Assembly (NCBI RefSeq): GCF_000787575.1
Contig: NW_012236524.1
Location: 679,665-743,664, forward strand
Source: Acytostelium subglobosum
Lineage: Eukaryota
Direction: 5' to 3'
Length of the DNA: 64,000 bases
Shown: positions 1,279 through 64,000 of the stretch, in pieces
Numbering within the stretch: the stretch's first letter is position 1
How the letters are laid out: the number at the start of each line of letters is the position of its first letter
Made by a program: the position numbers and the translations under genes
Notes under the pieces: model-generated
The model's input: the letters and a program-made list of their open reading frames with translations, nothing else
Told to the model about the DNA's origin: nothing
Database searches by the model: none

Positions 1279-1295
1279 CAAACAACAACAATAAC

Positions 1296-37823: not shown

Positions 37824-39269
37824 GTGGTATACTTCTTGGACACATTCATGCGCATCTTCAATGGACCCAATGGTCACCAACATCACAGATTGTTGTCAGA
37901 GCCATTCATTGTTGAGGATTCAAGATATAGAGGCCATGGATTAAATGATATAATTAGACCATGGTCTATTGTGGACATTGATGACCGAGCGAGTGAAGTG
38001 CACTCAATCAATATCAACAACAACAACAACACACGACCACAAATACCTCTGACAATAATCAGAAGTATAATTAGAATGCTCATACTGGATCATACGACCA
38101 CAACGATATGAAAGGTGTCTCTGGCAACAGTGATCTCGACTTTCCATCGAGAGGTGGCGTCAATCATTTCAAACAACCCTTTACCAACACTATGTGTAGT
38201 TATGTCCTTCCTCATACCTCATATTTGTTCGCGATTCTGTCTGTTCAAGAACTTGCGCAAACATATCCATGCAAATGACATTGTTGATATAGACATAGAC
38301 CACCTGCCACAATTTCTCGACCAGCTTGAATCATTGACATTGCCATACTCTGGCTATAGAGCCCTGGATCAATCGGAGCAATACCGATACATGAAGATAT
38401 TTGGCTTGAATCAACTCAAACGAATATACTTCATTGAGTCTGCCATCCCTCGTAATCGCCAAATCAAATGCTCCGGTATTGATTACGTGGTTGTGGTCAA
38501 TGGTGTACCAGAGAATGACGCGCCAAATGCTCTCCCACTGTGGCTCGATCACTATGTGAAACATTGTCCAAACTTGGAGAGCGTGTCCATCAATGCGCTC
38601 TATCCTGAAGGGCCATTTCCCAAGAATGTATCCAACAACATCATCCATCATCACCTTCAACTCTGGTACCCAAAATACATGAGGCTTCATCATGGACGAC
38701 TTGCCAATGTTAGCCACATCACATCACTCTTTGTACCATTCAAATCAAAAAATCTCCAATATCTTCCATTGTTCATCAACATCAACATACTCCACATCAC
38801 AGTCTATTCTCATTATCGGACCTCTCAAGATCAAGTGATGGATGTTCTTCAACAACTGTACAGATCTGCCGGCAAATTGACATCACTGATTGTTGTAGTG
38901 CCGGCAATCAAGGACACAATCCATTTGCTTCCAAATGTTCGCAATAGTATCCAATCGATAGAGATCAGATTGACTGATGATGAAGTTGCAATCACGTCCA
39001 CTCTTGATGGCCTAACTCATCTTGACATTCTACGCAAACATTTGGATCGAGCTATCTTTGATCGACTCACTCGACTCTCCATTCAATATGTTCTTGAAGG
39101 TCATGTAATACCATTGCATCGAGACATCCTTCTCAAACACTTGATGCTGCCACTTCACTTCCTTCATTGTGTTGGACTGAATTCTACCGACAGCGACCTA
39201 CTACATTACCTGTCCCTGTCACTCTCACTGGTGTGGCGTGATCCAACAACAACAACTACACATAGATAA
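37824..39269 (+). CDS. Hypothetical protein; two same-frame ORFs (37824..38111 and 38115..39269) separated by a single TGA at 38109..38111
   Basis: ...LDHTTTTI-TGA-K-VSLATVISTFHREV.... The long ORF has no ATG near its 5' end; it opens with GTG directly after the stop. The gene model is unresolved; an intron spanning the stop, an upstream exon (ORF 37553..37801), or a pseudogene are all possible. Confidence 0.35.
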
Positions 39270-39740: not shown

Positions 39741-41281
39741 ATGATAGACATCGATCAATACCTGGACTTTGGATTCCCGGTGGACCAGATCAAGTTCTTC
39801 ATATGTATGATGGCTTCATACCCATTTGCTATGATCTTGAAACGTCTGCCCAATGCAAATATGAAGCATATACTGTCGATCGTGCTCGGTATCACTTATT
39901 GCAGCTTCTCACTTGGAGCCTACAGTTGGGTGCACTCGCTGATCAGCTCGACCGTCGTCTATATTTTGGTCAACGTGCTGCCAAGACGTGTGGCGCACAT
40001 CTACGTCTTTGTGTTTGCCATGGGCTACATGTCCGCCAGCCATTGGTACCGCATGTACGTCGACTACATGGGCTGGACGATGGATTTTACCGCGCCACAG
40101 ATGGTGCTCACACTCAAGCTGACGTCGTTCGCCTGGAACCTATATGATGGATCGCGTCCAGTTGCTGAGCTCTCGGCCGACGAGAAGAAGAGATCCATCA
40201 AGAAGATCCCAACCCTCCTAGAGTTCTATGGCTTTGTCTACTACTTCCCAACCTTCCTCGCCGGTCCAACCATCGAGATTGGTGACTACCTCCGTTACAC
40301 ATCCGGTGAGATGTTTAGTGAATTCGTAAGTACATCACCATTGATTGATTGATTGATCGATTGACAATGACTAACATTCTCCTGATTAGAAAACAATTCC
40401 AAGTTCTGGATTTGCTGCTTTGAAGACCTTTGTATTGGGTCTTCTCTGTTTCCCAATCCTTACTCTAGGCGGTACATACACTGTTGCATATCTCTTCACA
40501 CCAGAGTTTGCCATGGAGCCATTGTACTTGAGAGTGTTCCGCATGTGGTTCCACATCGTACTCTCCAGATTCAAGTACTACTTTGGCTGGTACGTCTCAG
40601 AGGGAAGTGCCATCCTCTCTGGTATGAGCTACAATGGTCTCAAGGATGGAGTTCCAACGTAAGTAATCACATTGCCCAATCATGCCACCATGATCATCAT
40701 GATCACTAACAACCAATACTAATCAATCAAACATATATATATATAGATGGGATCGCCTTACAAACGTCGTTCCACTCAAGGTTGAGTTGGCCTCGAACAT
40801 TCGTGATGTATCCACTTATTGGAACATGGGCACTGCTGATTGGTTGAAGACATACGTGTATTTGAGATTGGCCCCAGCTGGAACCAAGCCATCGTTCAAG
40901 TCCACTATTGGCACCTACGCCGTCTCTGCCTTCTGGCACGGATTCTACCCAGGCTACTACATCTTCTTTGTGCTCTCTGCCTTCTTGACCGAGGTGGCCA
41001 AGGACATCCGTCGCAAGATCCGTCCATACTTTGTCAGCGGACCAAAGGACACACCAATCCAGCCATTCAAGCTTGGCTACGATATAATTGGATCGATGAT
41101 CACCGCTTGGTTCCTCAACTTTTATGGCGCTTCCTTCCTTATCCTCAGCTTTGACAAGACTCTTGTGCTCTGGCGCTCGTTCAGCTTCATGCCACCAATC
41201 ATTCTCGTTGGATCATTCTTCATTCTTAGATTCTTGGTGCCAACACCAAAGTCACAAAAGGTTGTTACCAAGTATGCTTGA
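39741..41281 (+). CDS. MBOAT-family lysophospholipid acyltransferase (ALE1/LPCAT3-like); exons 39741..40325, 40390..40658, 40747..41281 (462 aa)
   Basis: WNMGTADWLKTYVYLRL...AVSAFWHGFYPGYYIFF is the MBOAT catalytic His region with the LPLAT-type YPGYY; multiple TM helices are present. Introns are GTAAGT..TAG with phases 0 and 2 verified. Confidence 0.8.
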
Positions 41282-45160: not shown

Positions 45161-45371
45161 AACAACATTCATTCAACGTGGACACATTCGAACCACACAC
45201 ACATCATACACATCATTCACTTCACTCGCTCAATCATTCATTCAATCAATCAATCAACTCTCATTGGTCTTTGACTAACATCCTCACCTTAATGACATAT
45301 TAAGTCATAATATAGATAGTTAATTAGTTAATATATATATTTATTTATATATATAAATCATATATAAGAGG

Positions 45372-47385: not shown

Positions 47386-48846
47386 TAGTATATCGATCAA
47401 TGGATTTGGCAACAACAACAACAACAGTAACAGTAATAGTAATGGCGGTGGTGGTAGCAATAGTAATAGCCTTGTTTCATCACCAGTATATCGCCAGCCA
47501 AAGGGTCCAGATGGGACAAAGGGCTTCACCGATAACTATAGGACAGCTCGCAAGCCAAGCCCTGCATCCCCCAATGCACCCGGCGCCAACTAACGAATCA
47601 ATCAATCAATCAATCTATGAATGAATGAATGGACACACAGACGAAAGACCACATGACCACGACGACGACTACTACAACATCTTCAACATCTTCGATGGAC
47701 AATAATATTATTATGTACGATTATATAACCTTTTTCCAAATACTTGTTCTCAGCTGGCTGTCTGGCTGCTACATCAAACACGTTCGAGCAGCAAGCAACA
47801 AGCATTGCTATGATTTCAAAAGGAATACAATGAATAAACCATTCAGTTGTGTCCTCTCCCTCCAACCAACCTACTCCTATATTGATCATCAATATAGCAT
47901 AAGCATCATTGTTCTATACCACCAGATGATTAAGGACCATTCTCCATTCCATTGGCAACATAGTCACGCCTCAATCATAACATAAGTGGGTCTTGAGAGT
48001 GCGAAACACACTCGCCACTGCAACACATCAATTAAATGATGTGATACAGATATTGTCATATGATAATTGGTCCCTGGCTGTGATCAATATATTTGGATAT
48101 GGAATGGCTTGCTACCTACCCCAATAATGGCTATGAGAAGTGACCCTCTCTATTTCTTTTTGTGTTGGATCATTAATCATCAAAGGCAACAACAGTGTGT
48201 GTGAAAGTGGTGACTCTGTTGCCAATGTGGTCAACATATGATCAAATGGGGTAAGATCAGTCCAACATGTTGTTAATACATACAATACCTGATAATGGGG
48301 TGTCAGATATAGTAGTAGTGAGGGCCAACCCATCTTGATTGCCAACTACGAGTCATTGCTGTTGATGGTGGTGGCAACGCGACCTAACCTCAATGAGAGG
48401 ACACTACCCATTCAACCATTCATAGACCCTCCCCAATAACCAAGTAAAGTAAATAAGATTAAGATTGAGATAGAGTCCTGACTCCCAATATATTGGTAGC
48501 GGGATCAATCGATTTATTGTTTGAGTTGGAGTATGTGGTTGTGTGTGTTATCAATAGGTCCATTGAGTGAGGTTCGCTGCTGGTGATTGCAATTGTAAAC
48601 AAAGTTTATAAATAATTATTATTGTGAGATTGAATGGAATGGTAGAGTCTATCAAGTCCTGGAAGGACGATACGATGTACGTGCCGCACTCCACACACTC
48701 CACATCTCCGATAACTCTATCTAACATTCTCACTTTAAAGGACATATATATATAAATGATCATATTCATTCAAATAATTTAGTATACAAATAATTAGTCA
48801 ACTTAATAATATTAATAATAATAATTATAATAATAATTTATTTATC

Positions 48847-49809
48847 ATGAAGATATTGTTAGAGGAGTTTGAATATTTGTTGGAATCATTTATTCAAAGT
48901 GAAGTGGAGGATAATAATAATCATGCTACATTATTCCGAACCAACAAGTCAATAGTTGTGGAGATGATCAAGATATATGTTGGTGCTGATCATGCATGTG
49001 ATATATATATTCGTAGTATACTATTACCTGTATATTCACATATTAATAAGTTGGAAGCAATGGGCAAACAGTTGGACATCAATCAAGAGATGGAAAGATT
49101 GTTGGAGAGGATTGTTAGCCTGATGTATATATGTCCGAGACGAATCCAACTCTGTTGTCACATGTTAAGACAATATGTTTCCAGGAGGTATACCGAACAT
49201 TGGAGGTCAATAGTTTGCGGATTCTTTTTCCTCAGGCTGCTCTGTCCTGCAATGGTTTCACCATCACTGATGGGTGTCAAACTCATACGCAACACAATCA
49301 ACAAAGACTTGGTATCCGTTGCCAAACAACTTCAAATGAGGTCCAACTCATCGAATGAAGCACCTGCCTCCGACCCAATCTCAATAATATTGGATCAATT
49401 ATCGACTGATACATCAATGATAATGATGATGAGTCCAGATCATCAATATAACGAGATGGATAATACTATTGATGTGACGCCAGACTTGTTCATGGAGATG
49501 TTGGCCGCAGCCCAGGGCATCATAGACAAGATCAAGCCAGCATTGATCAGTGGCATCCAATCACAAAGAGACAAGATATTAGAGATTGAAAGGATATTAC
49601 TACCATTGCATACAGAGTATATAAACTCTACAAATGTAGAGTATGCAATGGAGACCAAGTTATCTACAACTTTGTCAAGATCACTATCAACACCAACATT
49701 CAACAAGTTGTCATTATCATCATCATCAATATCCTGTACATGTCCAGAGTCTGCTGGACAAACACCACTTCTTCTTAGAAGCAATACTAAAGCAAAGCTA
49801 TTCAAGTAG
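48847..49809 (+). CDS. Small RasGAP-domain protein (320 aa)
   Basis: The arginine-finger loop is HATLFRTNKS (FLRxN[ST]-type). It is followed about 100 aa later by RSIVCGFFFLRLLCPAMVSP (the FLRxxxPAIxSP motif of RasGAP domains). Confidence 0.55.
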   Translation: MKILLEEFEYLLESFIQSEVEDNNNHATLFRTNKSIVVEMIKIYVGADHACDIYIRSILLPVYSHINKLEAMGKQLDINQEMERLLERIVSLMYICPRRIQLCCHMLRQYVSRRYTEHWRSIVCGFFFLRLLCPAMVSPSLMGVKLIRNTINKDLVSVAKQLQMRSNSSNEAPASDPISIILDQLSTDTSMIMMMSPDHQYNEMDNTIDVTPDLFMEMLAAAQGIIDKIKPALISGIQSQRDKILEIERILLPLHTEYINSTNVEYAMETKLSTTLSRSLSTPTFNKLSLSSSSISCTCPESAGQTPLLLRSNTKAKLFK

Positions 49810-50112: not shown

Positions 50113-53100
50113 ATGACATCAACAACATCAACAACATCAACATCAACATCAACAAATAATAATAACAATAACTATGGACGTGGCAATGTTGAACTTAAGG
50201 ATAGTGTTGGACTTGGACATCCTAGAATGTTAGCAAACTCTGCGAATAGAATAGAGGAACAATATGTACTCAGCTTACTTGCCAAGGCCAAAGATCCACG
50301 TCATCCCAAACTAGGAGAGATCATCTCAGTGTTTGATAAGGTTGGTACTTGAAACGAACACGACAGCCTGTCACTCACTCACTAACACGATCAATCAATC
50401 AATCAATCAATCTAGCTTGTAGAGTTGGCCAAGGTCGATATAATGTCGTTGACAAAGCAGAACTTTGATTACTTTCACATGTTCATGAACGTCTTGCTAG
50501 AGCTGCCGGCGTTCTCATTGAGCGACAATAGAGATCTTCATATGATGTTACTAAAGAAGTTGAACGGTCTGATATTCTCAAACATTCTGGTGCAGACCTA
50601 TTGTTGTAGCGATCGCTGGATCATCAAACTGCTCAATCTACTCATTGGATGCACGCGTGACTCTGATGTCATTGGCGAGATATCCATCACATTGCAAATA
50701 CTCTGTTGTTTCAACATCACTCCCAAAGAGCTCAAGTACCTCTTCCGTCTAATGGAGAGTGTCGGTGATGAACGTGTAAGTACGAGCACGCACGAGATAG
50801 TGCAAGGTGATCACATGACCTAACCCCTGCCAACCAATCAATCACAACAGCCATTCTATTGGAGTGTACTGGTCGAGGTACTTGAGTACATACTGCGACC
50901 GCGACAGGGTCCAGATTCATACTTCAACTTCAATCAGAGTAATGGCGGACTGATGATTCCAGAGAAGGTTCCATTCGATGGAGGATATACATTCAGTTTG
51001 TGGATCAATGTGGAGGATTTTGTCGATCTGCGCTACGCTCCCATCTTGTACAGCTTCTTCACAGATATTGAGACGGGCTTTGAATGCAGCTTCCAAGGCC
51101 ACTCACTACGCTACTCTGTCAAGACCAAGAACAAGAGCGCAGTGCAAAAGTCGCAGTTTGTCTTCCACCCCAAGCGATGGTACTACATCACGATCGCACA
51201 CGAGTACTTCCTGTTCAAGAAGAGTCAGCTGTCGTTCTTTGTCAATGGCAAGCTGGAGGAGAAGATCCCCCTGCTCTACCCGCGCAACGACACGACCTAC
51301 ACGCGCTGCCATGTCGGCAACTCATCGACTCTGAACGCTGGCTTCATCGGACGCATGGGCTCAATACTGATGGTGAACGAAGCAATGACGCCCGTCGAAG
51401 TGCAGGCGCTCTACAACCTGGGCAAAGACTACACCCTGGTCATCGAGAAGCTGCCACGCGAGGGCACCATTGGCATATTCAACAACGAGATGCACCTCGA
51501 GTCGCGCAAGATCAAGGTGTTGTTCATGTACTATCCAAAGGCTACCGACAAGGCCCTGTGCTTCGATATTTCCAGCGGCGAGCTGCCGCATGCCGCTACG
51601 ATGGAGGGCGTCAACATCATCAAGACTACTTCGCCCATCGACCAGCTATTATACGTGGGCGGACTGCCTATGATATACCCACTGTTCTCACAGCTAGGAC
51701 ATCCGATTAACGGCATCGACACTATGCCAGCCGACATCAACGAGCAGACCACAATCACATCCACATTCATACAGTACATCACCATCCCAAACAACTCGAC
51801 ACATAGCCCCATCGCGATATTCCCGCGACCCACCAACTTTGGCCACCCATCGATCGTGTTCCGCCTGCTCAACACAATCATCGAGAACAATGCAGTGTTC
51901 CTCGAGCAGATCGTCGAGACACAGGGCTTCCAGACCATCTCTTTCCTGCTGCAGTCGCTGCCGTCCAGCGCGCCATTCTGGACGCCTGACGACATTGAGA
52001 CGCTGAGTCGCCTGCTATCATACTGCGCGTCCAACCCCTCACTCTACACGCTGTCAATCGAGCATCTCATTTTCCGACTGTTCCAGCTCTGGTCCAACAC
52101 GCACACACTCACACAGATGGCCCTGTTTGAAGCGATCAGACTGCGAGTCCAAAACAGCGCAGCATTTTGGCGTGGCAACATCAGAGTGGAGCGATGGTTG
52201 GAGATCATGAAGCGTTTCTACACGCTTGAGATGGTACTCCCAAGCGAGCAGACACCAACATTTATCGCCACAACAGAGAGGATCAAGCGATCGCGATCGC
52301 AGATCATTGTAATATTGCGCGAGAGTTGTATGCCGGTGTTCTCCATGCAGGAGACGCGCTGGCTGGCGCTCTACCTCAAGGAGTCCACCGTGGAGAATCA
52401 GGACGACATCACAAAGATGCTGGAGGACATGCTGCCCGCGCAGCACCTCAACTTCACCGCCAAGGATCTGTTCTTTGGCGAGCTCATCAACGACCAGCCC
52501 AAGCCCATCCAGCAGTTTGGCCCCACACAGATCCCATTGCCCAAGCACCTGGCCTATTTATGGGACATTGACGTTACGGATGAGATGGCGCGACGCAGCG
52601 AACTGGTGCCTCTCGATGAGAAGCACGCATATTTATTGTATCGCCACTGGATCAAACTGCGACGCACGAGAGCTGGCAACCTGAGTGGTGCCAAGGTGAA
52701 GAAGTCATTGGAGTTTAGCACACAGACACTGTACAACATGCCACTGATATATCGTCTGAAGGAGTTGGGCATACCAAACACACACGCGGCTGCTGCCTCA
52801 TCCAGCGCGTCAATGGTCACATCGACAATGTCACCCACGACCATGTCCCCTACTACCATGTCGCCTGCAACAATGTCGCCGGCCATGTCTCCGTCGTCCT
52901 CTCCGCCACGACCAAACAGCCTGCTGAACAGGACTGTGTCATCATCAGTTCAAAGCCCAGGCGCCAGCAGTAGTGACCCCTTTGGACAGAACGCGACATC
53001 CCTGGTAGATTACGAGGACACGACCGTAGTACGTTGGAAACTGGACCGCTCCGAGGGTCCAGGTCGCATGAGACGCAAGCTCAAGCGCAACTACCTTGGC

Positions 53101-55938
53101 TCAGACTACAAGGGATTGTCCAAACAGAACAAGTTTGGAAGGAATAGACGTGCTATCGTGGACATCTATACATCGGACAGGGATCGCTACTACATCGATC
53201 ATGACTCTGGCGATGGCCTGGGCAGCATCATTGTTCGACTGCGTCTCGACCCACTACTAGACCCCAACACAACACTTGCTATCGAGCGACAATTGGGAGC
53301 CTCCAACTCATTGTTGGGACTGGACCAGCAACAATTGGACACATCTGTGTCAGGCAGTGGCAATACGAATGCGCTCCAATCACCTGGCATCACACGACAG
53401 GACTCGACCATTGACAAGTCATCACTGATGAGAACACCCACCAAGCTACAGCATCAACACTCAATACTCAACACCAGCTCACCGATCAAGAACAGTCTGT
53501 CGGAGACTTCGACGCGCGACCTTTTGTCCCAGTCTCAGCAACTGCAACAGCCAGAGAAGATTGTTGGCGTGTATCAATGTGGCATGGTCACGCCCATCGG
53601 CTTGATCAAGGGAGTGCTGTCACTCACAACCCTTCAGCTCTGCTTTGACAAGTCACCGCCTCAGATCGACGAGGTGACGGGCAAACTGACGCTGGAGCCA
53701 GACCACGGATGCGTGCGCATCAAGAACTACTACACATTCAAGGTGAAGGATCTGCTTGAGATACATCGTCGACGCTACCTACTGCGCTGGAACGCCATCG
53801 AGGTGTTCCTGCACCACAAGAGCTACATGTTCACGTTCGCCTCGGACAACGAGTCGGTGCAGGTGTTCAACAAGATCACCGGACTTCACCCGCCGCAGCT
53901 CAAGGTCAAGCACGCAGACTCGCCCTCCAAGCTGATCAAGCGACTCAACTACACCCAACGCTGGAAGAACCGTGAGATCAGCAACTTTGAGTACCTGATG
54001 CATCTCAACACGATCGCCGGTCGCACGTACAACGACACGTCACAGTATCCAATCTTCCCACAGGTGGTCGCGGACTACCACTCAGAGCACCTCGACCTCA
54101 CCAGCGACGCATCGTTCCGCGACCTCAAGAAGCCGATTGGCGCGCTCAACCAGCAGCGTCTGGACACACTCATCCAACGCTATCACTCGTTCAACGATGC
54201 AGAGATCCCTCCATTCCTGTACGGCAGCCACTACAGCAACTTTGGCATCATCGCCTACTACCACGTGCGTCTCGAGCCCTTCACCTCCTACCACCTGTCG
54301 CTGCAGAGCGGTGTGTGGGACCACCCGCAGCGCATGTTTGAGTCGGTGGACCGCATGTGGGACGGCGTGACCAGTCCCAACCTGGCCGACGTCAAGGAGC
54401 TCACGCCCGAGTTCTTCTACATGCCTGAATTCCTGACCAACAACGAGCACTTCCAGTTTGGCTTCCACAACAGCACGTCAGGCGACCTCATCCTGCCACC
54501 ATGGGCGCACGAGTCGCCCGAGCTCTTCATCCAGAAGAACCGCGAGGCGCTCGAGTCTGAATACGTCTCGATGCACCTCAACCACTGGATCGACCTCATC
54601 TTTGGTTACAAGCAGAAGGGTCAGGCGGCAGTCGAAGCCAACAACGTCTTCTTCCATCTGACCTACGAGGGCAACGCCGCACTCAACAAAGAAGACCCCG
54701 AAGAGCGACGATCAGTCGAGTCACAGATCAAAGAGTTTGGCCAGACACCACCACAACTCTTCACCAAGCCACATCCAAAGCGCAAGACTCTCAAAGAGCT
54801 CGACCGTCCACAAATCGACATACTCACCAAGTTTGCCAACCTCTTCCCCAACGCGCTACAATTGGGCGCGGCGCAGGCGCAAGCCAATGCAGCCAATGCC
54901 GACACAGACACAGATCAGCAACAACAATATCCATTCAAGATACTCAAGACCAACAGCTGTCTGCCACTCGTGCACATTGGCGCATGCTCAGACAGCGACA
55001 CAATCGTACTGGTGTACCGCGATGGTGTGCTGGCAGTCAATCAGTTCGTGCCGACACCCTCCAACAACCTACCATTCACATTCGACATTGACAAGACGCT
55101 GTCCACGTACAAGGAGAAGCAGATCGACACGCTGTTCATGTCAGACTCGGTCACATGCATCAGCAATTGTTTCGTGATGACGCCCGACGGCAAGATGCTG
55201 TTCTCCTGCGCCAACTGGGACAGCATCTTCAAGTGCTGCAACATCCAGAACGGCAAGATACATCGCATCTACCGCGACTTCCACCGCGGCATGGTCACAT
55301 GCATATCGATGGGCTCGAGCGGCCACACGCTGGCCACGGCCTCGACCGATACCACCATCCTTGTGTGGGACGACGTGTCCGCGCTGATCAAAGAGGCAAA
55401 GACCAAGCCCGCATACCGACTGTGCAGCCACGACGAGCCAGTGCACTGCATCGACATCAACGAGGAGTGGGACCTGATTGCCAGTGGCTCGCAGGACCGC
55501 AAGTGCATTCTGCACACACTACGCACTGGCAACTATGTCCGCACGATGCTACACAAGGGCGCCGTAGAGATTGTCAAGATATCGACCGTGGGCCAGACCA
55601 TCATTTCATACTGCTCCATGAACTACTTGTACGTCCACTCATTCAATGGCAAGCTTCTTAAGATGGAGCAGTGCGACGAGCGACTATACGACCTCAAGCT
55701 TACTGGCGAGTCGGTCAAGAAGGGTGGCGTGCTTGGCGTTGGAGACTCAGTGCAATTCCTGGTGACAGGAGGCACTCGTGGCGTCAAGGTTCGCAGTCTT
55801 CCCGACCTCACCATTGTAAACAGCTTTGACAGTCCGACCACTATCCGAACGGTTGCACTTGTGGCGCGTGAGAAGTACATGATGATAGGTCTGAACGATG
55901 GCAATCTAGTGATCATTCCATTCGAGACATCAGTCTAA
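50113..55938 (+). CDS. BEACH-domain protein (Lvs/Beige family) with an N-terminal ConA-like lectin domain, PH-like + BEACH domains and C-terminal WD40 repeats; exons 50113..50340, 50416..50775, 50851..55938 (about 1890 aa)
   Basis: BEACH core: REISNFEYLMHLNTIAGRTYNDTSQYPIFPQVVADY...LYGSHYSNFGIIAYYHVRLEPFTSYHL...WIDLIFGYKQKGQAAVEANNVFFHLTYEG. ConA-like: GGYTFSLWINVEDF. WD40: ISMGSSGHTLATASTDTTILVWD. Two GT..AG introns with phase 0 link the short N-terminal exons. Confidence 0.85.
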
Positions 55939-56408
55939 TGGACAACTTGCATGTTTGAACCTGGAATAAATGTCAACTATGACATGGACATGATTGGTAC
56001 CAAAAATAGATAGAGATACATGGGATGACGTTGTACGGACAAATAATGTCAACTTCAGATGTCTAATCATTGTTGTCCATGGACGACATTACGGGTGCAT
56101 TGTGTTTTTGTGAAGATAAATCCATTTTTGGATACTGATCACACCTTTGTGAAGGGGTTGATTGTGTTTTTTGGGTCATTCTTTTTTGATCATTTCTGTG
56201 CGAACAATCATACACACAGGTCCAATGCCTGTTCGATTAGTGGGCATGGAATCCACATACCTCAACTCAATCAGTTAGTTGTTTATCTTTGTTATTTGTA
56301 TCAATACTCTTTATTTATTTATTTGTGTGTGATCAATCAATCAATCAATCACTCAATCAATATCTTAAATCTAGTTTGTTAGATATATCAAACAATCAAT
56401 CAATCACA

Positions 56409-58117
56409 ATGGTAGAGGACACTCCTTATCAACATCAACACCATCACCATCACCATCACCAACATCATCAACATGGCGATCACCCTACAGTATTGGAGAG
56501 AGTCAACAGTTTTAGATACCAGGTGGAATCAAAGACCAGATACTTGTTCCTTTTGGACATGGGCAAGGCTGAGATCAACATCAATCATCACTATCACAGG
56601 AGTAAACTAGGTGTAATAGTCAGTACAATAGTACTAATAATCATAGCATTCTTTATTATAATCACTGTAGCACAGTTCTCAAAAGGTAACATTATCAACA
56701 TGTTCCATCAATCAATCACATGATAAATCACTCACTCATACAATCAATCAAAACAGGAACACCATCAATCATATATAATGCAAATATACCTTCACAGTAC
56801 AATCCACTTCTTACACCAGAGGTTGGTGTTGTATTATTACGCAGTGGAGCTATCACAAAGATTGATCCGGCTCACGTCAGTGTGGTGTTCCGATACATCA
56901 CCATCACTGATCAGGACACAAAGCCACGCGTGGTCGAATACCTCAACGTAACAAAGTGCACATTCTCCGATAATCAGCCATCGGAAGACGCTGCGTCCAA
57001 TGTGTTGACCGACTCGGCGTCATGCCCACTCGAGCAGGTGGTGATGTCGGGCTCCTACGCCATGAACACCTACCGATACCTGGACATTGGCGTCGTGCGC
57101 TGCACATGCGCACCCAACGACACATCATGCGGTTGCTCGTCCGACGCAGACTTTAAGAAGTACTACTACAACGACACTGCCATCAACATACTCATCTCTG
57201 AGCACATACCCTCGTACTCAGTGTTTGCGCGTCGATTCAATCTCTTCCCTCCCAACCCCAACTTTGCGCATCCACCAACCATTAAGAACTACACTCAATC
57301 CATCTATTGGTACAGCTCCCAATACGTCGTTCAAAAGGTCGACATCTCAATCAGACGCAAGAGTATATACAACGCGCCAAGATTCATCTTTGATTATGGT
57401 TTTGGAGAGTTCTACAGTGTCGGAGAGGTATGTCATTCATTCGATATTAATCAATCAACTCAATCACTCACTCGATCACTCATTCAATCAATCGATCAAT
57501 AGATTATTTCGAGACAGGTCGATGCTTCAGCTGCTGGAAATGTCTTATTCAAAGCTTTCGTTAGACTTGATCAATATGAGAATCAGGAATTTCGTCAGAG
57601 CCCTGGCTTCTTGCAATTGATTGGATCATGGGGTGCACTCTGGACATTCTTCAGCATCACAGCACTTCAATTGGTGAGGATGTATAACAAGAGGATGTAT
57701 CATTCATCTTTGGCCAACTCTGCACCATCATCTCCACGTGTTGCTGGTAGTCGACTGCCCCCACATCAGCATCACACGACAAACAATGATCATCATGAAA
57801 GTCACCAGCAACATGGTGACATCCAACTCAAATCAATGCGTAGTTCAAGGAATATATTACATGCCAGTAGCACCAGTTTGGAGAAGTTTGCTTGGGAGAC
57901 CAGCAGGACGCAACCGTCTGGCGGTCTGACCTCGAGCTATGACCTCAATGACAGCAACAATCACATTGTACACAGCGACAACTATCTAAACTCTACCGAC
58001 TTTGGCAGCAGCGAAAACATGGCGAACAACAACAACAACAATGGAAGCAGCAGCAATATGAACAACAATAATAATCTTAGTCAACAGTTTGAGAACACCA
58101 ATGTAGAGAGGGGATAA
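56409..58117 (+). CDS. P2X receptor-like ATP-gated channel subunit; exons 56409..56685, 56757..57427, 57503..58117 (about 520 aa)
   Basis: Topology: cytoplasmic His-rich N-terminus, TM1 LGVIVSTIVLIIIAFFIIITVAQF, a roughly 300-aa Cys-containing ectodomain, TM2 LIGSWGALWTFFSITALQLVRMY. The pre-TM2 segment NVLFKAFVRLD and YNAPRF align with P2X4 LIKAYGIRFD (ATP-binding Lys) and YNFRFAKYY. Intron phases 1 and 0 were verified. Confidence 0.65.
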
Positions 58118-58159
58118 TCCCCATACTTGTTGGAACAATAAAATAAAATGTATTCATAT

Positions 58160-61100
58160 TCAATAGATGGGGAGTCGATAGAACTTGGTAGTACTTCCAG
58201 CCTCAGGGTGGAAATGGAGAGGAGATAGAATGTACTTTGTCAAAGTATGGATGTTGAGAGGCATCAACTTGGTAATGGGCACTTGCGTATTTGAGTAAAT
58301 ATTGTAACTGCCAATAGAAACGATATATTTGCAATAGATTTCCAAATAGGAGATATTGTTGAATATTGGTTGTTTGAGTGAAGTGCAGAGAGTGGACAGG
58401 TGTCTTTGAAGTGAAGAATTAATATCGGACTGTATGATCTCTTGAAAATTGGTTACAAGTTCTAACTTGTTGATAGGGGTTTGTACCTGGGGAAGAATAT
58501 CAACAACATGAGATAGATTAGGAAGTTGGATAATTAGGGTGTCCAGTTCTCCAGTGTTCCTCACAAAATAATTTTGAAGTGATTCTAGTTGATCTGGAGA
58601 TAAAGAAGAATTTGGTTGAAGATCAAATGCATCTATTATGAGTTTGTTTAGATTCTGGAAATGACTTAGTTGGTTAAAGGAGATCTTGAATGATATTTCC
58701 AATACAGTGATATGTAAGAAATTAAATGAATCTTTCTGAAGAAAAAAGTTTGGATTGAATGATGTTTGATATAGTCTGACTTTAAATTGTTTAGATGGAA
58801 TATCATCCAAATCGATAGTTTCAAAGGGTTCGAAAGAATGAACTTCTAATGATTGAATGGACTTTCCAATATTAAAAGAGAGAAATTTCTTCAATAAACT
58901 AGTTTCGGTTCTGTCATATATAGTTAAGATTTCTAATCCATAGTCCCTCTTGTAGTTTTCTAGTTGCCTAGGTGATGACAACCAAGAATACTTGGAGTGT
59001 ATATCAGGCATCTCAATAAGTTTCAAATGTTTTAAATTTGGAGCTTTAAACATTAATTGATGTCCCTGATATGAAAGCGTCATTGTTTGTTTCCTGATTC
59101 TGCTAAAATCAATGGGAGCCACCAATGATTCCAATTGATTAATGAAGGATTTAAAATGCTCTAATGGAATATATTTAAAAGAGAATGCCTGGAAATTCAA
59201 AGGAGGAGATTTGAAGAGACAATATTTTGATCCAATATCCTTGATTGTAGAGCATATATCATTCTCATTTGGTAGCCATTTGAAAATCATAAAATGGGAA
59301 ATTGCCAAATGAAACTGTGATGATACCGTTGATAATAAGACCTTCCACTTTGAACTAAGAGTATTGTCTTTTATAAGTAGTTCAATTATGCCTCTCATTA
59401 CCATAATTGGCAATCTTGGCATTGGCATATCAATAGGGATAGCATTAAGATAGCTGGATTCTTTGGAAAATAAAGAATGTTTCTGAAACTCTTTGAATTG
59501 TTGTACTAGTTCAGGGTTTGATGAAATATTGTCCAATATCAGTTTTTTTGTAGCTTTGTAATTGGTTTTGAAAATATCATAATTATATCCAGTCATATGT
59601 TTATAATAATGAAGGTACTTCAGAAGATGAAGCAAAGTTGTTGGACACTTAATATAAATTATCATAAGTTTGGAGACTGAATAGCCAGAGCAGGAATCTT
59701 TGTTGACCAAATGAGGCATTATATCATCGATAAAATCTGGTCCATTTAACAGAGAATAATAGATGCATTTGGAAATAAATTGATAATTTTTTAAAAATGG
59801 AATAAGTATTTTTAAATTATCCTGGAAGAATTGTTTGATAATTGATCCATTTCGATTATCAGTAATAATATCTTCAGAACTCATTATTAGAGTATTAGGG
59901 GATACCTTAAGAATCATCGCCATTGCAATATCAAAGTAATTATGTAATTTTTCACCTCCTATTTGGTATAATGAGAGCAATCCACGAATACAAGAGCTGA
60001 TTGTCATAATATAAGAACTGGTTGATTCTTCTCTCCTAATATAAAAGTCATCTTTCTTTTTCAAGTAATTGGTGATATTGTACTTTGAAATACCAACCAA
60101 ATGATTGATTAGAGATGAAATTAAAGGATGTTGATAAGTTCCTTCAATGTTATTGAAACATTGGATAATTGTATCAAGAACAATGAAACAATTATAATCA
60201 GTGCCATTAAACAAATTCAGAATGTCTTTTTCATATTCTTTGTAATTCTATTATTATTATTATGATAAGTATTATTAATAATTCATCTGTTTTATCAAAC
60301 ATGATTACGTACCTCTTTAATAAAATCTTTCGAGAGATTTATTAATCTAGATTGGTTGATGTGATTGATTTTAGTAAAACATTGAAGATATTTCTCGACG
60401 GTCCCAAGGTATGGATAGAGTAGTTTAAATAGTTCATTTGATTCTTGATGGATGTCGCAAGCCAATAAATTGATCATTTTATCATGATTTTCCTGTTTCA
60501 TTGTTGTCTTATCTAGTATTATATTGAATATTCTCTTTAACTCAACCCATAGAGGAGAATGAGAAAATAATTCAGAATCATAATATATATCAAATTTATC
60601 CTTTAATCCTTTCATTAAGATGCTAAATAAAAAATTAAAGTATAAAATTAATAAATATAGAAAAAGAGAATAAAAAATAATTACTTACTCAAACACTAAT
60701 TGTTTGTTATTGATCAAAAATAATGAAGTTTGTTTGTTGGATAAATAATAGAGGACATACATCTTCGTCTCCAAAATTGAATCCTGACGATATTCGTTGT
60801 CGACGACCTCCAAATCGTTATTGTTATATACATTCGACAACAACCAAGTCTCTAGAGCCTCCTCAACTCGATCAAATCCAAATGCTTTGCAAATATTGAA
60901 GTAAACGTGCTCATGGGAACCATACCTTTTGATATATTCAATATAGAGAGGGAAAAAAGTTGAATCTATAATGTCATCATTTTCTTTGAGCTTTCTGGTA
61001 TCGAGCAAGGTATTAAGAAATTCTGGATTTGTTAAACCTGGTAAATGGCTATCCTCTTTGTCATAAATGGATATGATCAGGAAAACCTTTGTAACCTCTT

Positions 61101-61504
61101 GAATGTTGACATATATTATGTCCGTCCACAAATGACCAAAATCTGATTTTGTTGGAAGATCAATTGTTTCATCATGGTCAAAGTCATATATTCCTACTAA
61201 ACAATGAATAATTGTATCTTTGATATTGATATTCTCAATTTCATCTTGATCGTTGTCTATACATCTAGTTAAAGTCTAAAAAAATATAATAATAAAAAAA
61301 ATTATTAATTATGAGTAGTTTGGTATTGATGGAGAAAAAGATCTAACTCACCTCTGACAATATAGGTAACATAGTAGAAAGGTCTTGAAAGCTTCTTTTC
61401 ATTTTGTACTCATCAACTCCAACTTTCAATCTCTTAAGTTGTTCCGTTGACAAAGTATTATCTTTTAAATACTCTTTTAATATATTAATTATAGAACTGG
61501 TCAT
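58160..61504 (-). CDS. Large hypothetical protein encoded by a strongly AT-rich, multi-exon gene (ORF blocks 61504..61355, about 61283..61140, 61131..60685, 60615..60295, 60214..58160); no family recognised
   Basis: Codon usage is dominated by AAA/AAT/ATT/TTA, unlike all neighbouring genes (AAG/AAC/ATC/CTC). Introns are AT-rich with oligo-T tracts (gtgagttagatctttttctcc...ttatatttttttag) instead of the CAAT/CACT-rich introns seen elsewhere. Confidence 0.5.
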
Positions 61505-61722
61505 TTGAAACAAATATATATTGTTGTTAACTAACTAACTAAAATTAAATGGATTAAAATGAAATACTCTTGGTATTTATAACAATGTGAGATGTTCCTT
61601 AAGCGTGTCACATCTAGATGTATACCCATCCAGATCCATTTTATCTGGATGGGAATGTGTTGATTATATATTTATTTTTTATTTATTTAATGTCTTTCGA
61701 ACACTTGAAGAATAAGGAAAGA

Positions 61723-64000
61723 TTAGAGCAAGGGTACAGCCTCGTTGAGACCAGAGTAACCACGTCTGTAGCGAATGTATCCAATGCTACCCATGATGAC
61801 ACCACCTAGGAACATCAGACCTCCTACAAGGGCAAGTACCACCTCGGGTACAATGTTGAGTGCGCGCAGAGTCTTGAGCTGGCTCTTGAGCTGGTTGATG
61901 CTGTCGCTGCTGGGCATGGCAGTCTGACCAATCTTCCATGATGGATAGTAAATGTTGGACGAGATCTTGTTGTAGAGTTGCCACGAGCCGTCCCAGGCGG
62001 GGATGGTGTTGTCCACCAAGAAGTTGAGCTGGAGCTTCAGGTTGTAGTAGAGCGCATTGCCAGTGATTGGCTCGAGATCCAGTGGGATGGCGGCGTTCTC
62101 GTAAGTGGGGTTCTGGCCGTCCACCTTGGACGAGATACTGGTGTCAACCTCCCACATGTCCCACAGGGTGATGAATGCGGGCACTCCATCCTGGACAGAG
62201 GTGAGGTTGGCAAAGCCGGCCTGGGTGGTGAAGTAGGTAGGGTCGACGGGGAAGCTGTCGTTCTGGAGATAGTATCTCCTGGTCTTGATACCATCGACGT
62301 TGGTGTCGTTAAAGTAGTTCAACTGGATGGTGCGGAAGATGTTCTCCTCAAAGATGTCCAGAGTCTCCATCTTGTCCTGGAGGGGTGGGAACTGACCACT
62401 CTCGACGTAGCCCTTGACGGGCACCGGCGAGGCCCAGAATGGGAGCTCGGTGAGGTTCTGCCACTTGACCAAGGAGTTGACAAGACGGTTGTCGTTCTTG
62501 CCAGAGTTGATCGTGGTTGGTGGTGGGATAGTGTAGTTGGACTGCAGAGCACATGGTGTTCCGGCTTGCAAGTAGTTCAGCATTGGGTCGTTACAGTTCC
62601 ATAGCCAATCGCCAACAGTCTTGGTTGCGATCAGTCCACCTCCATTTGTCATTATCTGGCGTCCATAAGCTGCAAAGTATCCTTTCGAATTACCAAGCTA
62701 TATGTGATTGGTTGATTGATTGTATTAGTAATCCAAACAAACATGTGCAAAACATGACACGCTTACTGTAAACATCCAATTTCCCAATGCTGCAACTGTA
62801 GTATTATCCATTCCCCAGATGTTGACTCCTCTAGGGTCTTCCATTGCGAGTGCTGCCAGGGCCTAGATTGAATGATAGATGGGATGGTTAGTAGTCTGGT
62901 CTCCGGGGGACATATGATATATCATGTCACATACAGCTCCACCATTGATGTTGTTGAGGTTGTATGGTCCAAAGTATGGTAAGAAGAAATAGGCATATAG
63001 CTTCTGGATAGGCTCTGATAGACCGAGGATCTCTGGTGCGCCTTGAGTTGGATTGAAGATGTTGTTGATAATGTTGAACTGGGAGATTGAGGTACCGTTC
63101 AATGCCAGTCTATTGTAGAGCTGGCAGAATCCGAGCATGGGGTCGGCCATGCTGGTAGCATTGCAACTCGTGAGAAGGGGCGTGGTGGCATTGAGCGAGT
63201 AGGAGTTGGTTCCGTTCATCCACCAACCGATGACAGAGTTCATCTGGGCAGGGGTGATGCCCAGGCCAGTAGTGAGCTGTTGAGTGGCGGTGGCTTCACC
63301 AAACGATGCATTGTACCAGAGTGGCAGACCAACGGTGTAGTTCAAGATCGACAATCCAGAGGTAGCGTCAAAGATCAACTTGGCGGCTTCAACTGTGATG
63401 CCTGTGGGTGGGTTGGCACCAATGATCATTCCTGCCCAATGGGTCGATGTGGTTGGCAACTGATGGACGGTTGTGAGAGAGTTAGGATGAGTGAGCGTGC
63501 ACAAATAAGGTCGATCCACATACAGTTGTGTCATTGGCCCATGAACTGTAGAAGGCATCAATGGTAACATCAGCAATCAATGATTTGAGCTGATTATTGA
63601 AGATTGGGATAACATTGTAAGACAGGGCCAAGGTCTTGAAGTAGACAGAGTTCAGGTATGGCATGAACATGCTTAAGTTGGGGGTAGAGAGTGAGAGAGG
63701 AGAGGTGTTAGTCTGTGCTGTCATAGGCCTTGTCAATGTCCACAACTACTCACTTAATAGTTGGGAATGTACCAACCATGAGGAAGCTTGTACTGTCTTT
63801 AGTCTGTTGCATAAGTCCAATGAATGCTGTGAGCGAGCGTGGATATGATTGATGGATGGGTGTTAGGAAGACTCCAACTCAACATGGGTCATGCAAGCCA
63901 AAGAGACACATACCTGGGTTGATGTTGGTGATAAGAGTGTCCTCTGGCAACTTGGAAGTCTCGGAATCAAACTCGTAGAACTTCCTCTGTGAATAGGTGG
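61723..64000 (-). CDS. CD36/LIMP-2 (scavenger receptor class B) family protein, 3' part; multi-exon, 5' end beyond the window
   Basis: Large glycosylated ectodomain exons (many N-x-T/S sites). The C-terminal TM helix IVPEVVLALVGGLMFLGGVIMGSIGYI and the short tail YRRGYSGLNEAVPLL* match the CD36 family. Exons 62863..63576 and 61723..62652 are joined through a small exon at about 62757..62862. Confidence 0.6.

What the first reader, a model, noticed from the sequence alone, without database searches (positions are those of the whole stretch)
58160..61560. A 3.3 kb compositional island: one gene with radically AT-rich codons and AT-rich introns
Every other gene here uses GC3-rich codons (AAG, AAC, ATC, CTC, GAC), and their introns are rich in caatcaat/cactcact motifs. 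This minus-strand multi-exon gene (about 1000 aa) instead uses AAA/AAT/ATT/TTA/ATA almost exclusively. Its introns are oligo-T rich (for example the first intron, gtgagttagatcttttt...tttttag), resembling Dictyostelium discoideum-style genes. The boundaries are sharp: the GC-rich P2X gene ends at 58117 and the CD36-like gene starts at 61723. Possible explanations are recent acquisition from an AT-rich donor genome or element, a very lowly expressed gene escaping GC-biased conversion or selection, or a rapidly evolving lineage-specific gene. The protein has no recognisable family.
Basis: partly seen in the sequence, partly recalled or inferred. Interest (0 to 1): 0.7.

Follow-up and report, generated by a model that had tools for sequence, protein, structure and literature searches.

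The report
AT-rich lineage-specific F-box/LRR-like gene
The AT-rich stretch is one intact four-exon gene of a gene family found so far only in Acytostelium and Heterostelium social amoebae; its silent-site composition lies at the low end of a smooth range seen in neighbouring genes, so it is an unusual native gene, with import not shown but not excluded.

Summary
The island is real. Window 58160-61560 has GC 0.30 against a window mean of 0.44, and the next-lowest 3.4 kb has 0.377. It coincides with one minus-strand gene of 4 exons, 3 GT-AG introns and 1045 aa.

Neighbouring genes span GC3 0.35-0.74. At fourfold sites the gene (GC4 0.26) equals four other coding segments (0.22-0.27).

Four features are truly deviant:
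- amino-acid composition (GC1 0.36, GC2 0.26);
- introns (GC 0.11-0.20 against 0.33-0.49, without the (CAAT)n runs seen in most other introns);
- no T|T avoidance or T|G excess at codon boundaries;
- a dinucleotide signature outside the window's range.

The protein does have a family. An exhaustive HMMER search gave 35 hits. All 25 looked up are Acytostelium subglobosum or Heterostelium album hypothetical proteins. Alignment is collinear over most of the length, and a truncated paralog lies 20 kb away.

Best reading: a native family member without codon-level selection. Import from an AT-rich relative is not excluded, but phylogeny gives it no support. Interest is modest.

The parts
61352..61504 (-). 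Exon 1 (ATG at 61504-61502; 51 codons, phase 0)
   Evidence: Spliced CDS is in frame. In alignment A1 the N-terminus lines up with the first residues of several family members (e.g. P0001, P0012).
61276..61351 (-). Intron 1: 76 nt, GTGAGT..TTTTTTTAG, GC 0.20
60689..61275 (-). Exon 2 (587 nt; GC3 0.35)
   Evidence: tblastn of P0003 matches 61035-60340.
60623..60688 (-). Intron 2: 66 nt, GTAAGT..TTATTTAG, GC 0.11
60313..60622 (-). Exon 3 (310 nt; GC3 0.24)
60248..60312 (-). Intron 3: 65 nt, GTACGT..AATAATAG, GC 0.18
58160..60247 (-). Exon 4 (695 codons plus TGA stop; GC3 0.31). Encodes the end of the helical repeat, the F-box-like bundle and the LRR-like solenoid.
   Evidence: HMMER hits. AlphaFold model with pLDDT 79.
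58988..59422 (-). Conserved family core (protein residues about 626-770): LPxL..II..L..D..W.V.LSTVSKQFH ... IGSxYCLFxxPPLH ... IPxxH..CLxRLESL..P ... APNLxHI
   Evidence: In A1 (15 sequences) the invariant columns are L629, L655, V658, H663, G689, S690, C693, L694, P699 and P711. The core is the region hit in every family member.
59282..59422 (-). F-box-like three-helix segment (exon-4 residues 276-322)
   Evidence: Model helices at 281-293, 299-308 and 310-322. hhalign against a small F-box alignment aligns in the expected register, P = 0.0026, probability 11%. Pfam F-box is not reached.
58175..59200 (-). LRR-like beta/alpha solenoid (exon-4 residues about 350-691)
61505..61722 (.). 5' spacer (218 bp, GC 0.27) between the stop of the CD36-family gene and this gene's ATG; presumed promoter
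58118..58159 (.). 3' spacer (42 bp, GC 0.26) between the converging stop codons of this gene and the plus-strand neighbour
38037..39269 (+). Paralog of the C-terminal half (core plus LRR-like part): 25% identity, E 4e-20, ordinary composition (GC3 0.44). It has an in-frame TGA at 38109-38111, aligned with the nearly invariant W651. It is a possible pseudogene or short form.

Best explanation
WHAT IT IS. This is a resident, intact nuclear gene. It belongs to an uncharacterised, fast-diverging family found so far only in Group-2 dictyostelids (Acytostelium and Heterostelium).

THE PROTEIN. The 1045-aa product has about 620 residues of alpha-helical repeat, then an F-box-like helix bundle, then a leucine-rich-repeat-like solenoid. 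It most likely acts as a substrate-recognition adaptor of an SCF-type ubiquitin ligase. That function is inferred from the predicted fold only.

THE COMPOSITION. The gene looks like an island because it sits at the unselected end of this genome's codon-usage range.
- Silent fourfold sites across the window run smoothly from GC 0.22 to 0.69.
- Conserved housekeeping-type genes are at the high end. Lineage-specific expanded families are at the low end.
- This gene (0.26) shares the low end with several neighbours.
- I infer that GC-ending codons elsewhere are maintained by a gene-specific force, such as selection linked to expression or constraint. This gene would lack that force, presumably because it is rarely or weakly expressed.

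WHY IT STANDS OUT. Three further things make it conspicuous:
- it has 3.1 kb of uninterrupted coding sequence;
- its amino-acid make-up has drifted towards AT-rich codons (I, N, K, F, Y, L);
- its three short introns are of the plain oligo-T/A kind, not the (CAAT)n-bearing kind of its neighbours.

SHOWN VERSUS INFERRED.
- Shown: the gene model, family membership, the composition statistics, and the fold as predicted.
- Inferred: low expression, the selective origin of the continuum, and SCF adaptor function.
For: - Gene model: clean, with canonical splice sites and an end-to-end open frame. The chance of such a frame is about 1e-23.
- Family: the exhaustive HMMER search gave 35 hits, 16 of them at E <= 1e-10. 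All 25 looked up are A. subglobosum LB1 (19) or H. album PN500 (6) hypothetical proteins.
- Collinearity: it aligns with A. subglobosum P0001 over residues 132-1043 against 130-1019, E 8e-41. All ten columns invariant across the 15 sequences of A1 hold in this gene.
- A second family member lies in the same window at 38.0-39.3 kb.
- Tree of the core: the gene falls among A. subglobosum members. Best trimmed-core identity is 42% (A. subglobosum) against 36% (H. album).
- Synonymous sites: GC4 is 0.26. That equals RasGAP (0.27) and segments 5675 (0.26), 6287 (0.22) and 4696 (0.24), within a continuum of 0.22-0.69. The two-fold C/(C+T) fraction is 0.28 against 0.27 for RasGAP.
- High-GC3 genes are MutS, SAM decarboxylase, GPCR family 3, WD40, BAR, MBOAT, BEACH and CD36. 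Low-GC3 genes are FNIP, B-box/Kelch, ComC-like, RasGAP and the paralog.
- It shares with the other genes of the window a preference for C before A and avoidance of C before G at codon boundaries.
- Very AT-rich native non-coding patches exist elsewhere, for example 48744-48848.
- No flanking repeats. No viral or metagenome relatives.
Against: - The gene is an outlier beyond silent sites. GC1 is 0.36 and GC2 is 0.26 (z -2.3 and -2.55).
- The fraction of residues that are F, Y, M, I, N or K is 0.394, and of G, A, R or P is 0.099. That matches the H. album members (0.32-0.41 and 0.09-0.14). It does not match A. subglobosum members (0.22-0.35 and 0.13-0.21) or any other protein of the window (maximum 0.338).
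- Its introns (GC 0.11-0.20) lie below all 11 other introns (0.33-0.49). That includes the introns of the equally low-GC4 ComC-like gene.
- Non-coding DNA elsewhere in the window averages GC 0.375. 'Decay to the local neutral level' therefore does not by itself explain the introns.
- The dinucleotide signature distance is 201, against 61 +/- 21 (maximum 104) for other 3.4-kb windows, and 174 against the window's non-coding DNA.
- Codon-boundary context is indistinguishable from the gene's own codon shuffle: T|G 1.07 and T|T 1.06. Nearly all other coding segments, including the low-GC4 ones and the paralog, show T|G 1.3-2.4 and T|T 0.3-0.9; the only departures are the F-box gene at 41.6 kb (T|T 1.06) and the short first P2X segment (T|G 0.80, n=159).
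- Its distance to the pooled other genes is 0.266, against a resampled null of 0.076 +/- 0.019.
- Expression was not measured.
- The F-box assignment fails Pfam.
Confidence: 0.55

Rival explanations
1. The gene, with its introns, was acquired from an AT-rich dictyostelid relative in which the same family exists (for example a Heterostelium-like species). The route could be interspecies transfer, cell fusion or introgression. It has kept the donor's amino-acid composition, intron style and lack of the recipient's sequence-context habits.
For: - Amino-acid composition matches the H. album members rather than the A. subglobosum members or other proteins of the window.
- Introns are of the oligo-T/A type at GC 0.11-0.20 and lack the (CAAT)n runs.
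- The dinucleotide signature lies outside the window's range.
- There is no T|T avoidance or T|G excess at codon boundaries, unlike nearly every other coding segment of the window and unlike the paralog.
- The composition changes at the gene's own borders, within about 200 bp upstream.
Against: - No donor is identified. The best hits by score and coverage are A. subglobosum proteins.
- In the core tree the gene lies outside the cluster that holds all six H. album members, even though shared composition should pull it there. Support is negligible either way.
- GC4 of 0.26 is not lower than in several other genes of the window, so silent sites carry no foreign signal.
- There are no insertion scars or repeats. 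The gene fits a slot with 42-bp and 218-bp spacers.
- Transfer of intron-bearing nuclear genes between dictyostelids is, to my knowledge, undocumented.
Confidence: 0.2
2. A local regime explains it: the locus is a recombination cold spot or a permanently silent chromatin patch. It would escape biased gene conversion or transcription-linked processes that raise GC and spread (CAAT)n runs elsewhere. The gene would then preserve the AT-rich state ancestral to dictyostelids.
For: - Exons, introns and both spacers are all AT-rich.
- All other sequenced dictyostelids are AT-rich, and A. subglobosum is the exception at 55% A+T (PMC4334915).
- The (CAAT)n runs mostly lie on the sense strand of the intron's own gene, which hints at a transcription-linked origin.
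Against: - The boundaries coincide with the gene ends. The adjacent last CD36 exon has GC3 0.71 only 220 bp away, so there is no gradient.
- Intron GC in other genes does not track their GC3. That argues against a regional force setting GC3.
- A 3.4-kb silent patch between closely packed genes is unusual.
Confidence: 0.12
3. The gene came from a giant virus or a bacterium, or is part of an integrated mobile element.
For: - Giant viruses of amoebae are AT-rich (my own knowledge) and carry F-box, LRR and FNIP expansions.
- Foldseek against viral models finds such proteins at E about 1e-3.
Against: - The gene has three spliceosomal introns.
- Of the 35 hits in the search of 1.84 billion representatives, all 25 looked up are dictyostelid and one further hit looks spurious; the remaining nine were not looked up.
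- The viral matches are generic fold resemblance: TM 0.2-0.35 and 10-16% identity.
- There are no viral or metagenome relatives by sequence.
- There are no transposase or reverse-transcriptase domains and no terminal repeats.
Confidence: 0.02
4. It is an assembly chimera or contamination, or the product of repeat-induced point mutation (RIP-like C-to-T decay of a duplicated gene).
For: The composition is atypical and the gene belongs to a multi-copy family.
Against: - Genes of the window's ordinary composition abut both ends in continuous sequence.
- The frame is intact over 1045 codons.
- RIP indices are not RIP-like: rho TA/AT = 0.70 and (CA+TG)/(AC+GT) = 1.5, derived.
Confidence: 0.02

Closest known systems
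Uncharacterised Acytostelium subglobosum LB1 / Heterostelium album PN500 hypothetical-protein family (e.g. GAM17064.1 = P0001, GAM25054.1 = P0005, GAM26550.1 = P0003, EFA78645.1 = P0017)
   Same: - Similar length (about 900-1070 aa in the long members) and collinear motifs from near the N-terminus to the C-terminal 'FYR(L/I)P' tail.
- The same conserved core: LSTVSKQFH, IGSxYCLFxxPPLH, CLxRLESL, APNLxHI.
- Members occur near each other in the genome, for example the consecutive A. subglobosum locus tags _101270, _101280 and _101290. Here two members lie 20 kb apart.
   Different: - Only 19-29% identity to any member in the full-length alignment A1.
- Amino-acid composition is much more AT-codon-rich than in any A. 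subglobosum member.
- It has substitutions at some near-consensus positions: SSQFH for SKQFH, and PPLNF for PPLH(L/I).
F-box/LRR substrate adaptors of SCF ubiquitin ligases (FBXL type: rice D3/Arabidopsis MAX2, TIR1, COI1, KDM2A/B, FBXL3)
   Same: - The predicted architecture has a short helix bundle immediately followed by an LRR solenoid.
- The LPxxxxxxIxxxL....V(S/C)K motif aligns in the F-box register.
   Different: - The F-box-like element lies about 620 residues from the N-terminus, behind a large helical-repeat domain.
- Pfam F-box and F-box-like models do not reach threshold.
- Skp1 binding is untested.
Within-genome codon-usage gradients, where conserved or highly expressed genes use GC-ending codons and lineage-specific genes sit near the mutational baseline (general knowledge). 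A related case is the AT-rich multigene-family compartments in the otherwise GC-richer Plasmodium vivax genome (my own recollection, not checked here).
   Same: - There is a smooth GC4 gradient of 0.22-0.69.
- Conserved families are at the top and expanded lineage-specific families at the bottom.
   Different: - Here a single gene, not a chromosomal compartment, is affected.
- It also differs in introns, amino-acid composition and codon-boundary context, which a simple gradient does not predict.

Membership tests
Acytostelium/Heterostelium uncharacterised family (P0001-P0035 set) | Significant sequence similarity to several members | tested here: met
   The phmmer search over 1.84 billion representatives gave 35 hits at E <= 1e-3 and 16 at E <= 1e-10. 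blastp against P0001 gives E 8e-41.
Acytostelium/Heterostelium uncharacterised family (P0001-P0035 set) | Collinear architecture over most of the length, with the invariant core residues | tested here: met
   Residues 132-1043 align with P0001 residues 130-1019. All ten columns invariant across the 15 sequences of A1 are present in this gene.
Acytostelium/Heterostelium uncharacterised family (P0001-P0035 set) | Taxonomic restriction to Group-2 dictyostelids | tested here: inconclusive
   All 25 hits looked up are A. subglobosum (19) or H. album (6). Ten hits were not looked up. The species of the window is undetermined: five of its proteins are absent from the collection.
F-box/LRR (FBXL-type) SCF adaptors | Recognisable F-box domain (Pfam PF00646 or PF12937) | tested here: not met
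   This protein gets no F-box hit. One of 15 family members gets a weak F-box hit at E 0.021.
F-box/LRR (FBXL-type) SCF adaptors | F-box-like helix bundle in the right register by profile or structure | tested here: inconclusive
   hhalign gives the correct register, P 0.0026 but probability 11%. The model has three helices at exon-4 residues 281-322.
F-box/LRR (FBXL-type) SCF adaptors | LRR solenoid directly C-terminal to the F-box | tested here: met
F-box/LRR (FBXL-type) SCF adaptors | Binding to Skp1 and assembly into an SCF complex | not testable with these tools
   This needs co-immunoprecipitation, or co-folding with the species' own Skp1.
Horizontally acquired gene | Composition deviant from the resident genome | tested here: met
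   GC1, GC2, introns, dinucleotide signature and codon-boundary context all deviate. Fourfold-site GC does not.
Horizontally acquired gene | Phylogenetic nesting within a donor lineage | tested here: not met
   In the core tree the gene is a deep, unsupported branch among A. subglobosum members, outside the cluster that holds all six H. album members.
Horizontally acquired gene | Absence from the syntenic position in close relatives | not testable with these tools
   No genomic DNA of relatives was reachable. The look-up of encoding contigs has no record for P0001.
Horizontally acquired gene | Insertion scars or mobile-element context | tested here: not met
   No terminal or target-site repeats flank the gene. 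No transposon-type domains were found.
RIP-like mutated repeat | TpA/ApT high, (CpA+TpG)/(ApC+GpT) low, and a degraded reading frame | tested here: not met
   The indices are 0.70 and 1.5. The 1045-codon frame is intact.

The most novel reading that the evidence does not exclude
An intron-bearing nuclear gene moved between social-amoeba species, from an AT-rich Group-2 relative into this GC-neutral genome. It still carries the donor's protein composition, intron style and lack of the recipient's codon-boundary habits. A variant reading is that it is a 'compositional fossil' of the AT-rich ancestral dictyostelid genome. In that case the GC rise in the Acytostelium lineage acted gene by gene, not genome-wide.
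Probability: 0.2. Interest if true: 0.65.

Novelty: new member of a known kind. Interest (0 to 1): 0.33.

Why it matters
- It gives a name and a probable fold to a gene that looked like an orphan. The protein combines a helical repeat, an F-box-like bundle and an LRR-like solenoid. Its family has expanded in Acytostelium: at least 19 distinct representatives at 50% identity.
- It shows that in this window the spread in codon GC is a gene-by-gene continuum that tracks gene conservation. The 'island' is the extreme of that continuum and not a separate class.
- The residual oddities make this locus a convenient single-gene test case. They are AT-rich plain introns, AT-skewed protein composition and the missing T|T avoidance. 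They bear on what raised GC in the Acytostelium lineage while all other known dictyostelids stayed AT-rich.
- If a closer AT-rich homologue were found elsewhere, this would be a rare documented case of eukaryote-to-eukaryote gene movement among social amoebae.

Tried and rejected
- The word-indexed protein search with the full protein found nothing. For the neighbouring CD36 gene it also found nothing. For the BEACH gene it returned only relatives at up to 54% local identity (36-40% over the full query), none named as a dictyostelid. That search appears blind to dictyostelids, so it could not identify the species.
- Exact look-ups of five proteins of the window, and of P0001's encoding contig, failed. 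Synteny and the DNA composition of paralogs could therefore not be examined.
- Pfam on the protein and on 15 family members gave no domain. PDB searches with the sequence and with the family profile gave nothing.
- The single-sequence AlphaFold run was useless (pLDDT 37). The run with the family alignment worked.
- The AFDB fold library was unavailable.
- Scans of viral and metagenome contigs found no relatives. The family alignment was too divergent for pattern scanning.
- Flanking repeats or target-site duplications: none convincing.
- RIP was rejected on the indices and the intact frame.
- The window has no tRNA genes and no Rfam matches.
- The first automatic intron enumeration was too permissive. 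It was replaced by a stricter version.
Full report
1. THE OBSERVATION

The window averages GC 0.44. Per-kilobase values are 0.35-0.57 everywhere except 58-62 kb, where they fall to 0.28-0.35. At the scale of the finding (3.4 kb) the island has GC 0.30. The mean is 0.439 (sd 0.043) and the lowest value outside the island is 0.377. No 1-kb window outside the island is as low as the island's median. So the low-GC stretch is real and is the extreme of the window.

Reading the minus strand and the open frames gives a clean gene model.
- Exons: 61504-61352, 61275-60689, 60622-60313 and 60247-58160.
- Introns: three GT..AG introns of 76, 66 and 65 nt.
- Product: 3138 nt of CDS, 1045 aa.
- A 695-codon open frame at this base composition has a chance probability of about 1e-23.

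The gene's first residues line up with those of several family members, and its C-terminal 'FYRLPIY' tail matches the tail of the closest full-length member. The model is therefore complete.

2. HOW DIFFERENT IS THE GENE?

I compared it with 33 other coding segments of the window.
- Their GC3 ranges continuously from 0.35 to 0.74 (mean 0.53, sd 0.11). The gene's 0.31 is the lowest value, but only 1.9 sd below the mean.
- The claim that every other gene is GC3-rich is therefore wrong. About a third of the segments have GC3 below 0.46.

Fourfold-degenerate sites make the point more strongly.
- The gene has GC4 0.26.
- That is the same as the RasGAP-like gene at 48.8 kb (0.27) and three exons of the ComC-like gene at 4.7-6.9 kb (0.22-0.26).
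- The whole window forms a smooth series from 0.22 to 0.69.
- The C/(C+T) fraction at two-fold sites (0.28) also matches RasGAP (0.27).
- Only the G/(A+G) fraction (0.35) falls below the minimum of the other genes (0.43).

Pfam shows what orders the series.
- The top of the series holds widely conserved families: MutS, S-adenosylmethionine decarboxylase, family-3 GPCR, WD40, BAR, MBOAT, BEACH and CD36.
- The bottom holds expanded or lineage-specific genes: FNIP repeat, B-box/Kelch, ComC-like, RasGAP-like and the paralog described below.

So at silent sites the gene is the low end of a continuum, not a separate class.

3. WHAT REMAINS DEVIANT

Four things remain.

(a) Amino-acid composition.
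- GC1 is 0.36 and GC2 is 0.26, which are 2.3 and 2.55 sd below the other genes.
- The fraction of F, Y, M, I, N and K residues is 0.394. The fraction of G, A, R and P is 0.099.
- Both lie outside every other protein of the window.

(b) Introns.
- Their GC is 0.20, 0.11 and 0.18.
- Eleven plausible introns of other genes have GC 0.33-0.49, whatever the GC3 of their gene.
- All three lie below all eleven (exact rank probability 1/364, my arithmetic).
- At least 10 of 12 other introns carry runs of (CAAT/CACT/CATT)n, mostly on the sense strand of their gene. None of the three does.

(c) Dinucleotide signature, normalised for base composition.
- The island's distance to the rest of the window is 201 (x1000).
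- Other 3.4-kb windows give 61 +/- 21, with a maximum of 104.
- The island is also 174 away from the window's non-coding DNA, which has GC 0.375.

(d) Codon-boundary context.
- Nearly every other coding segment shows an excess of T|G (ratio 1.3-2.4) and an avoidance of T|T (about 0.3-0.9). This includes the low-GC4 ones and the paralog.
- The gene has 1.07 and 1.06, the same as its own codon-shuffled sequence.
- Its distance to the pooled other genes is 0.266. The null from resampling those genes at the same size is 0.076 +/- 0.019.

A purely synonymous test, the choice of C or T in the third position according to the next base, gave the following.
- The gene shares the preference for C before A and the avoidance of C before G.
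- It lacks the preference for C before T: 0.27 against 0.60.
- One other gene, the F-box/LRR gene at 41.6 kb, also has weak context bias (T|G 1.28, T|T 1.06). The gene is therefore extreme but not wholly isolated.

4. THE PROTEIN HAS A FAMILY

Pfam and PDB sequence searches give nothing. The word-indexed search also found nothing.

An exhaustive HMMER scan of 1.84 billion representatives with the exon-4 product found 35 hits. The best has E 1.4e-21 at about 30% identity.

Twenty-five hits were looked up.
- Nineteen are 'hypothetical proteins' of Acytostelium subglobosum LB1.
- Six are from Heterostelium album PN500.
- One further hit (P0026) is a spurious repeat protein.

The full protein aligns collinearly with A. 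subglobosum P0001 (residues 132-1043 against 130-1019, E 8e-41) and with P0005. The multiple alignment shows shared motifs from near the N-terminus to the C-terminal tail. All ten columns invariant across the 15 aligned sequences are kept in this gene.

A second member lies in the same window at 38037-39269 (+).
- It matches the C-terminal half at 25% identity, E 4e-20.
- Its composition is ordinary for the window (GC3 0.44) and it has the usual codon-boundary context.
- It has an in-frame TGA at 38109-38111, aligned with the nearly invariant tryptophan W651. It may be a pseudogene or a short form.

The genome itself looks like a Group-2 dictyostelid of the Acytostelium type.
- It has FNIP-repeat, B-box/Kelch, BEACH and CD36 genes.
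- Five complete proteins of the window are absent from the 15-billion-protein collection. The source is therefore either an unannotated genome or differently annotated. Draft genomes exist for A. leptosomum and A. ellipticum (PMC5114724).
- I could not name the species.

5. FOLD AND LIKELY FUNCTION

With the family alignment, AlphaFold gave a confident model of the exon-4 product: pLDDT 79, pTM 0.79. In exon-4 numbering it has three parts:
- an alpha-helical repeat (residues 1-270);
- three short helices (281-322);
- a beta/alpha solenoid (about 350-691).

Fold searches gave these matches.
- Other F-box/LRR proteins recur: KDM2B (7.9), KDM2A (7.1), TIR1 (7.0), COI1 (6.9) and FBXL3 (6.6).
- NLR-type LRR proteins also score well: NLRP9 (9.3) and NLRP3 (7.7).
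- Foldseek agrees.

The motif LPxLxxxxIIxxL...W.V.LSTVSKQFH aligns with a small F-box alignment in the canonical register, but weakly: P 0.0026, probability 11%. Pfam's F-box models are not reached.

I therefore call the protein F-box/LRR-like. I infer a role as a substrate adaptor of an SCF ubiquitin ligase, at moderate confidence. Membership of the F-box family proper is not established.

6. ORIGIN OF THE COMPOSITION

Several origins can be set aside.
- Foreign origin from bacteria or viruses is effectively excluded. The gene has three spliceosomal introns, and every hit looked up in the exhaustive search is dictyostelid. Viral and metagenome scans found no relatives. Viral fold matches are only generic (TM 0.2-0.35).
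- No terminal repeats or insertion scars flank the gene.
- RIP-type decay is excluded by the indices and the intact frame.
- An assembly chimera is implausible. Genes of ordinary composition abut both ends, at 42 bp and 218 bp.

That leaves a native origin, or acquisition from an AT-rich dictyostelid.

For acquisition:
- the amino-acid composition equals that of the H. album members (F/Y/M/I/N/K fraction 0.32-0.41) and not that of the A. subglobosum members (0.22-0.35);
- there are also the intron style, the signature and the context differences listed in section 3.

Against acquisition:
- the strongest and longest matches are to A. subglobosum proteins;
- a neighbour-joining tree of the 136-column core places the gene as a deep branch among A. 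subglobosum members, not in the cluster that holds all six H. album members, although shared composition should attract it there;
- best trimmed-core identity is 42% (A. subglobosum) against 36% (H. album);
- support values are negligible (1-3.5%), so the tree does not decide;
- silent fourfold sites are not distinguishable from those of several other genes in the window.

A regional explanation, such as a recombination cold spot or silent chromatin, fits poorly. The composition changes at the gene's borders: the neighbouring CD36 exon has GC3 0.71 only 220 bp away. Intron GC in other genes also does not follow their GC3.

7. VERDICT

The most economical reading is a resident, functional member of a fast-diverging, lineage-specific F-box/LRR-like family.
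- It lacks whatever gene-specific force maintains GC-ending codons in conserved genes. That is probably selection linked to expression or constraint.
- It therefore sits at the genome's AT-rich silent-site baseline.
- Its protein composition has drifted towards AT-rich codons, and its introns are plain AT-rich ones.

I put this at about 0.55, acquisition from an AT-rich relative at about 0.2, and a local regime at about 0.12.

Two observations are explained by no reading:
- the introns are far more AT-rich than those of equally low-GC4 genes;
- the T|T avoidance typical of the other genes is entirely absent.

The finding is a real but modest curiosity. It is a new member of an existing, uncharacterised family, and an extreme of a known kind of within-genome compositional gradient.

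Noticed in passing
window 57461-57500, 56334-56361, 50388-50411, 45231-45258, 27040-27075, 15710-15749, 8641-8656, 6252-6267, 4765-4784, 62707-62722: Runs of (CAAT/CACT/CATT)n tetranucleotides lie in most introns and in 5'-leader-like regions across the window. In most cases they are on the sense strand of the gene concerned. An exception is 40340-40363, which is antisense to its gene. These runs raise intron GC to 0.33-0.49. They could be a splicing or transcription-linked signal, or a strand-biased microsatellite.
   Followed up: partly
all coding segments of the window (e.g. 50824-55935, 1161-3740, 29503-31356): There is a strong codon-boundary context bias across the window that does not depend on GC3. 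Third-position T is followed by G 1.3-2.4 times more often than expected. It is followed by T only about 0.3-0.9 times as often. C is preferred over T before A and before T.
   Followed up: partly
window 35524-37437 (+) and 37553-39269 (+): A FNIP-repeat gene lies directly upstream, on the same strand, of the truncated family paralog, which carries an in-frame TGA at 38109-38111. In A. subglobosum one family member (P0008, 1496 aa) is a fusion of the family's body with C-terminal FNIP repeats. That suggests a recurring association between the two.
   Followed up: partly
window 27810-35494 (-) and 41657-43330 (+): There is a cluster of B-box/Kelch genes (29500-31353, 31743-32654, 33857-35494). 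A bona fide Pfam F-box/LRR gene lies at 41657-43330. The window is thus rich in putative ubiquitin-ligase adaptor families.
   Followed up: no
window 3783-7429 (-): The ComC-like gene is heterogeneous within itself. Its upstream exons (4696-6925) have fourfold-site GC 0.22-0.26, and its last large exon (3783-4832) has 0.42.
   Followed up: no
window 48744-48848: An extremely AT-rich patch (100-bp GC down to 0.09, 'aataataat'-type) lies immediately upstream of the ATG of the RasGAP-like gene. It shows that native non-coding DNA of this genome can be as AT-rich as the introns of the finding.
   Followed up: no
Its C-terminus is a low-complexity Asn-rich tail. The identity of this gene is unverified.
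   Followed up: partly
tools, not sequence: The word-indexed protein search returned no hit named as a dictyostelid. This held even for the conserved BEACH gene (full-length matches at 36-40% identity) and for the CD36 gene. The exhaustive representative search did return A. subglobosum and H. album proteins. Negative results from the first tool should not be read as absence in this clade.
   Followed up: yes
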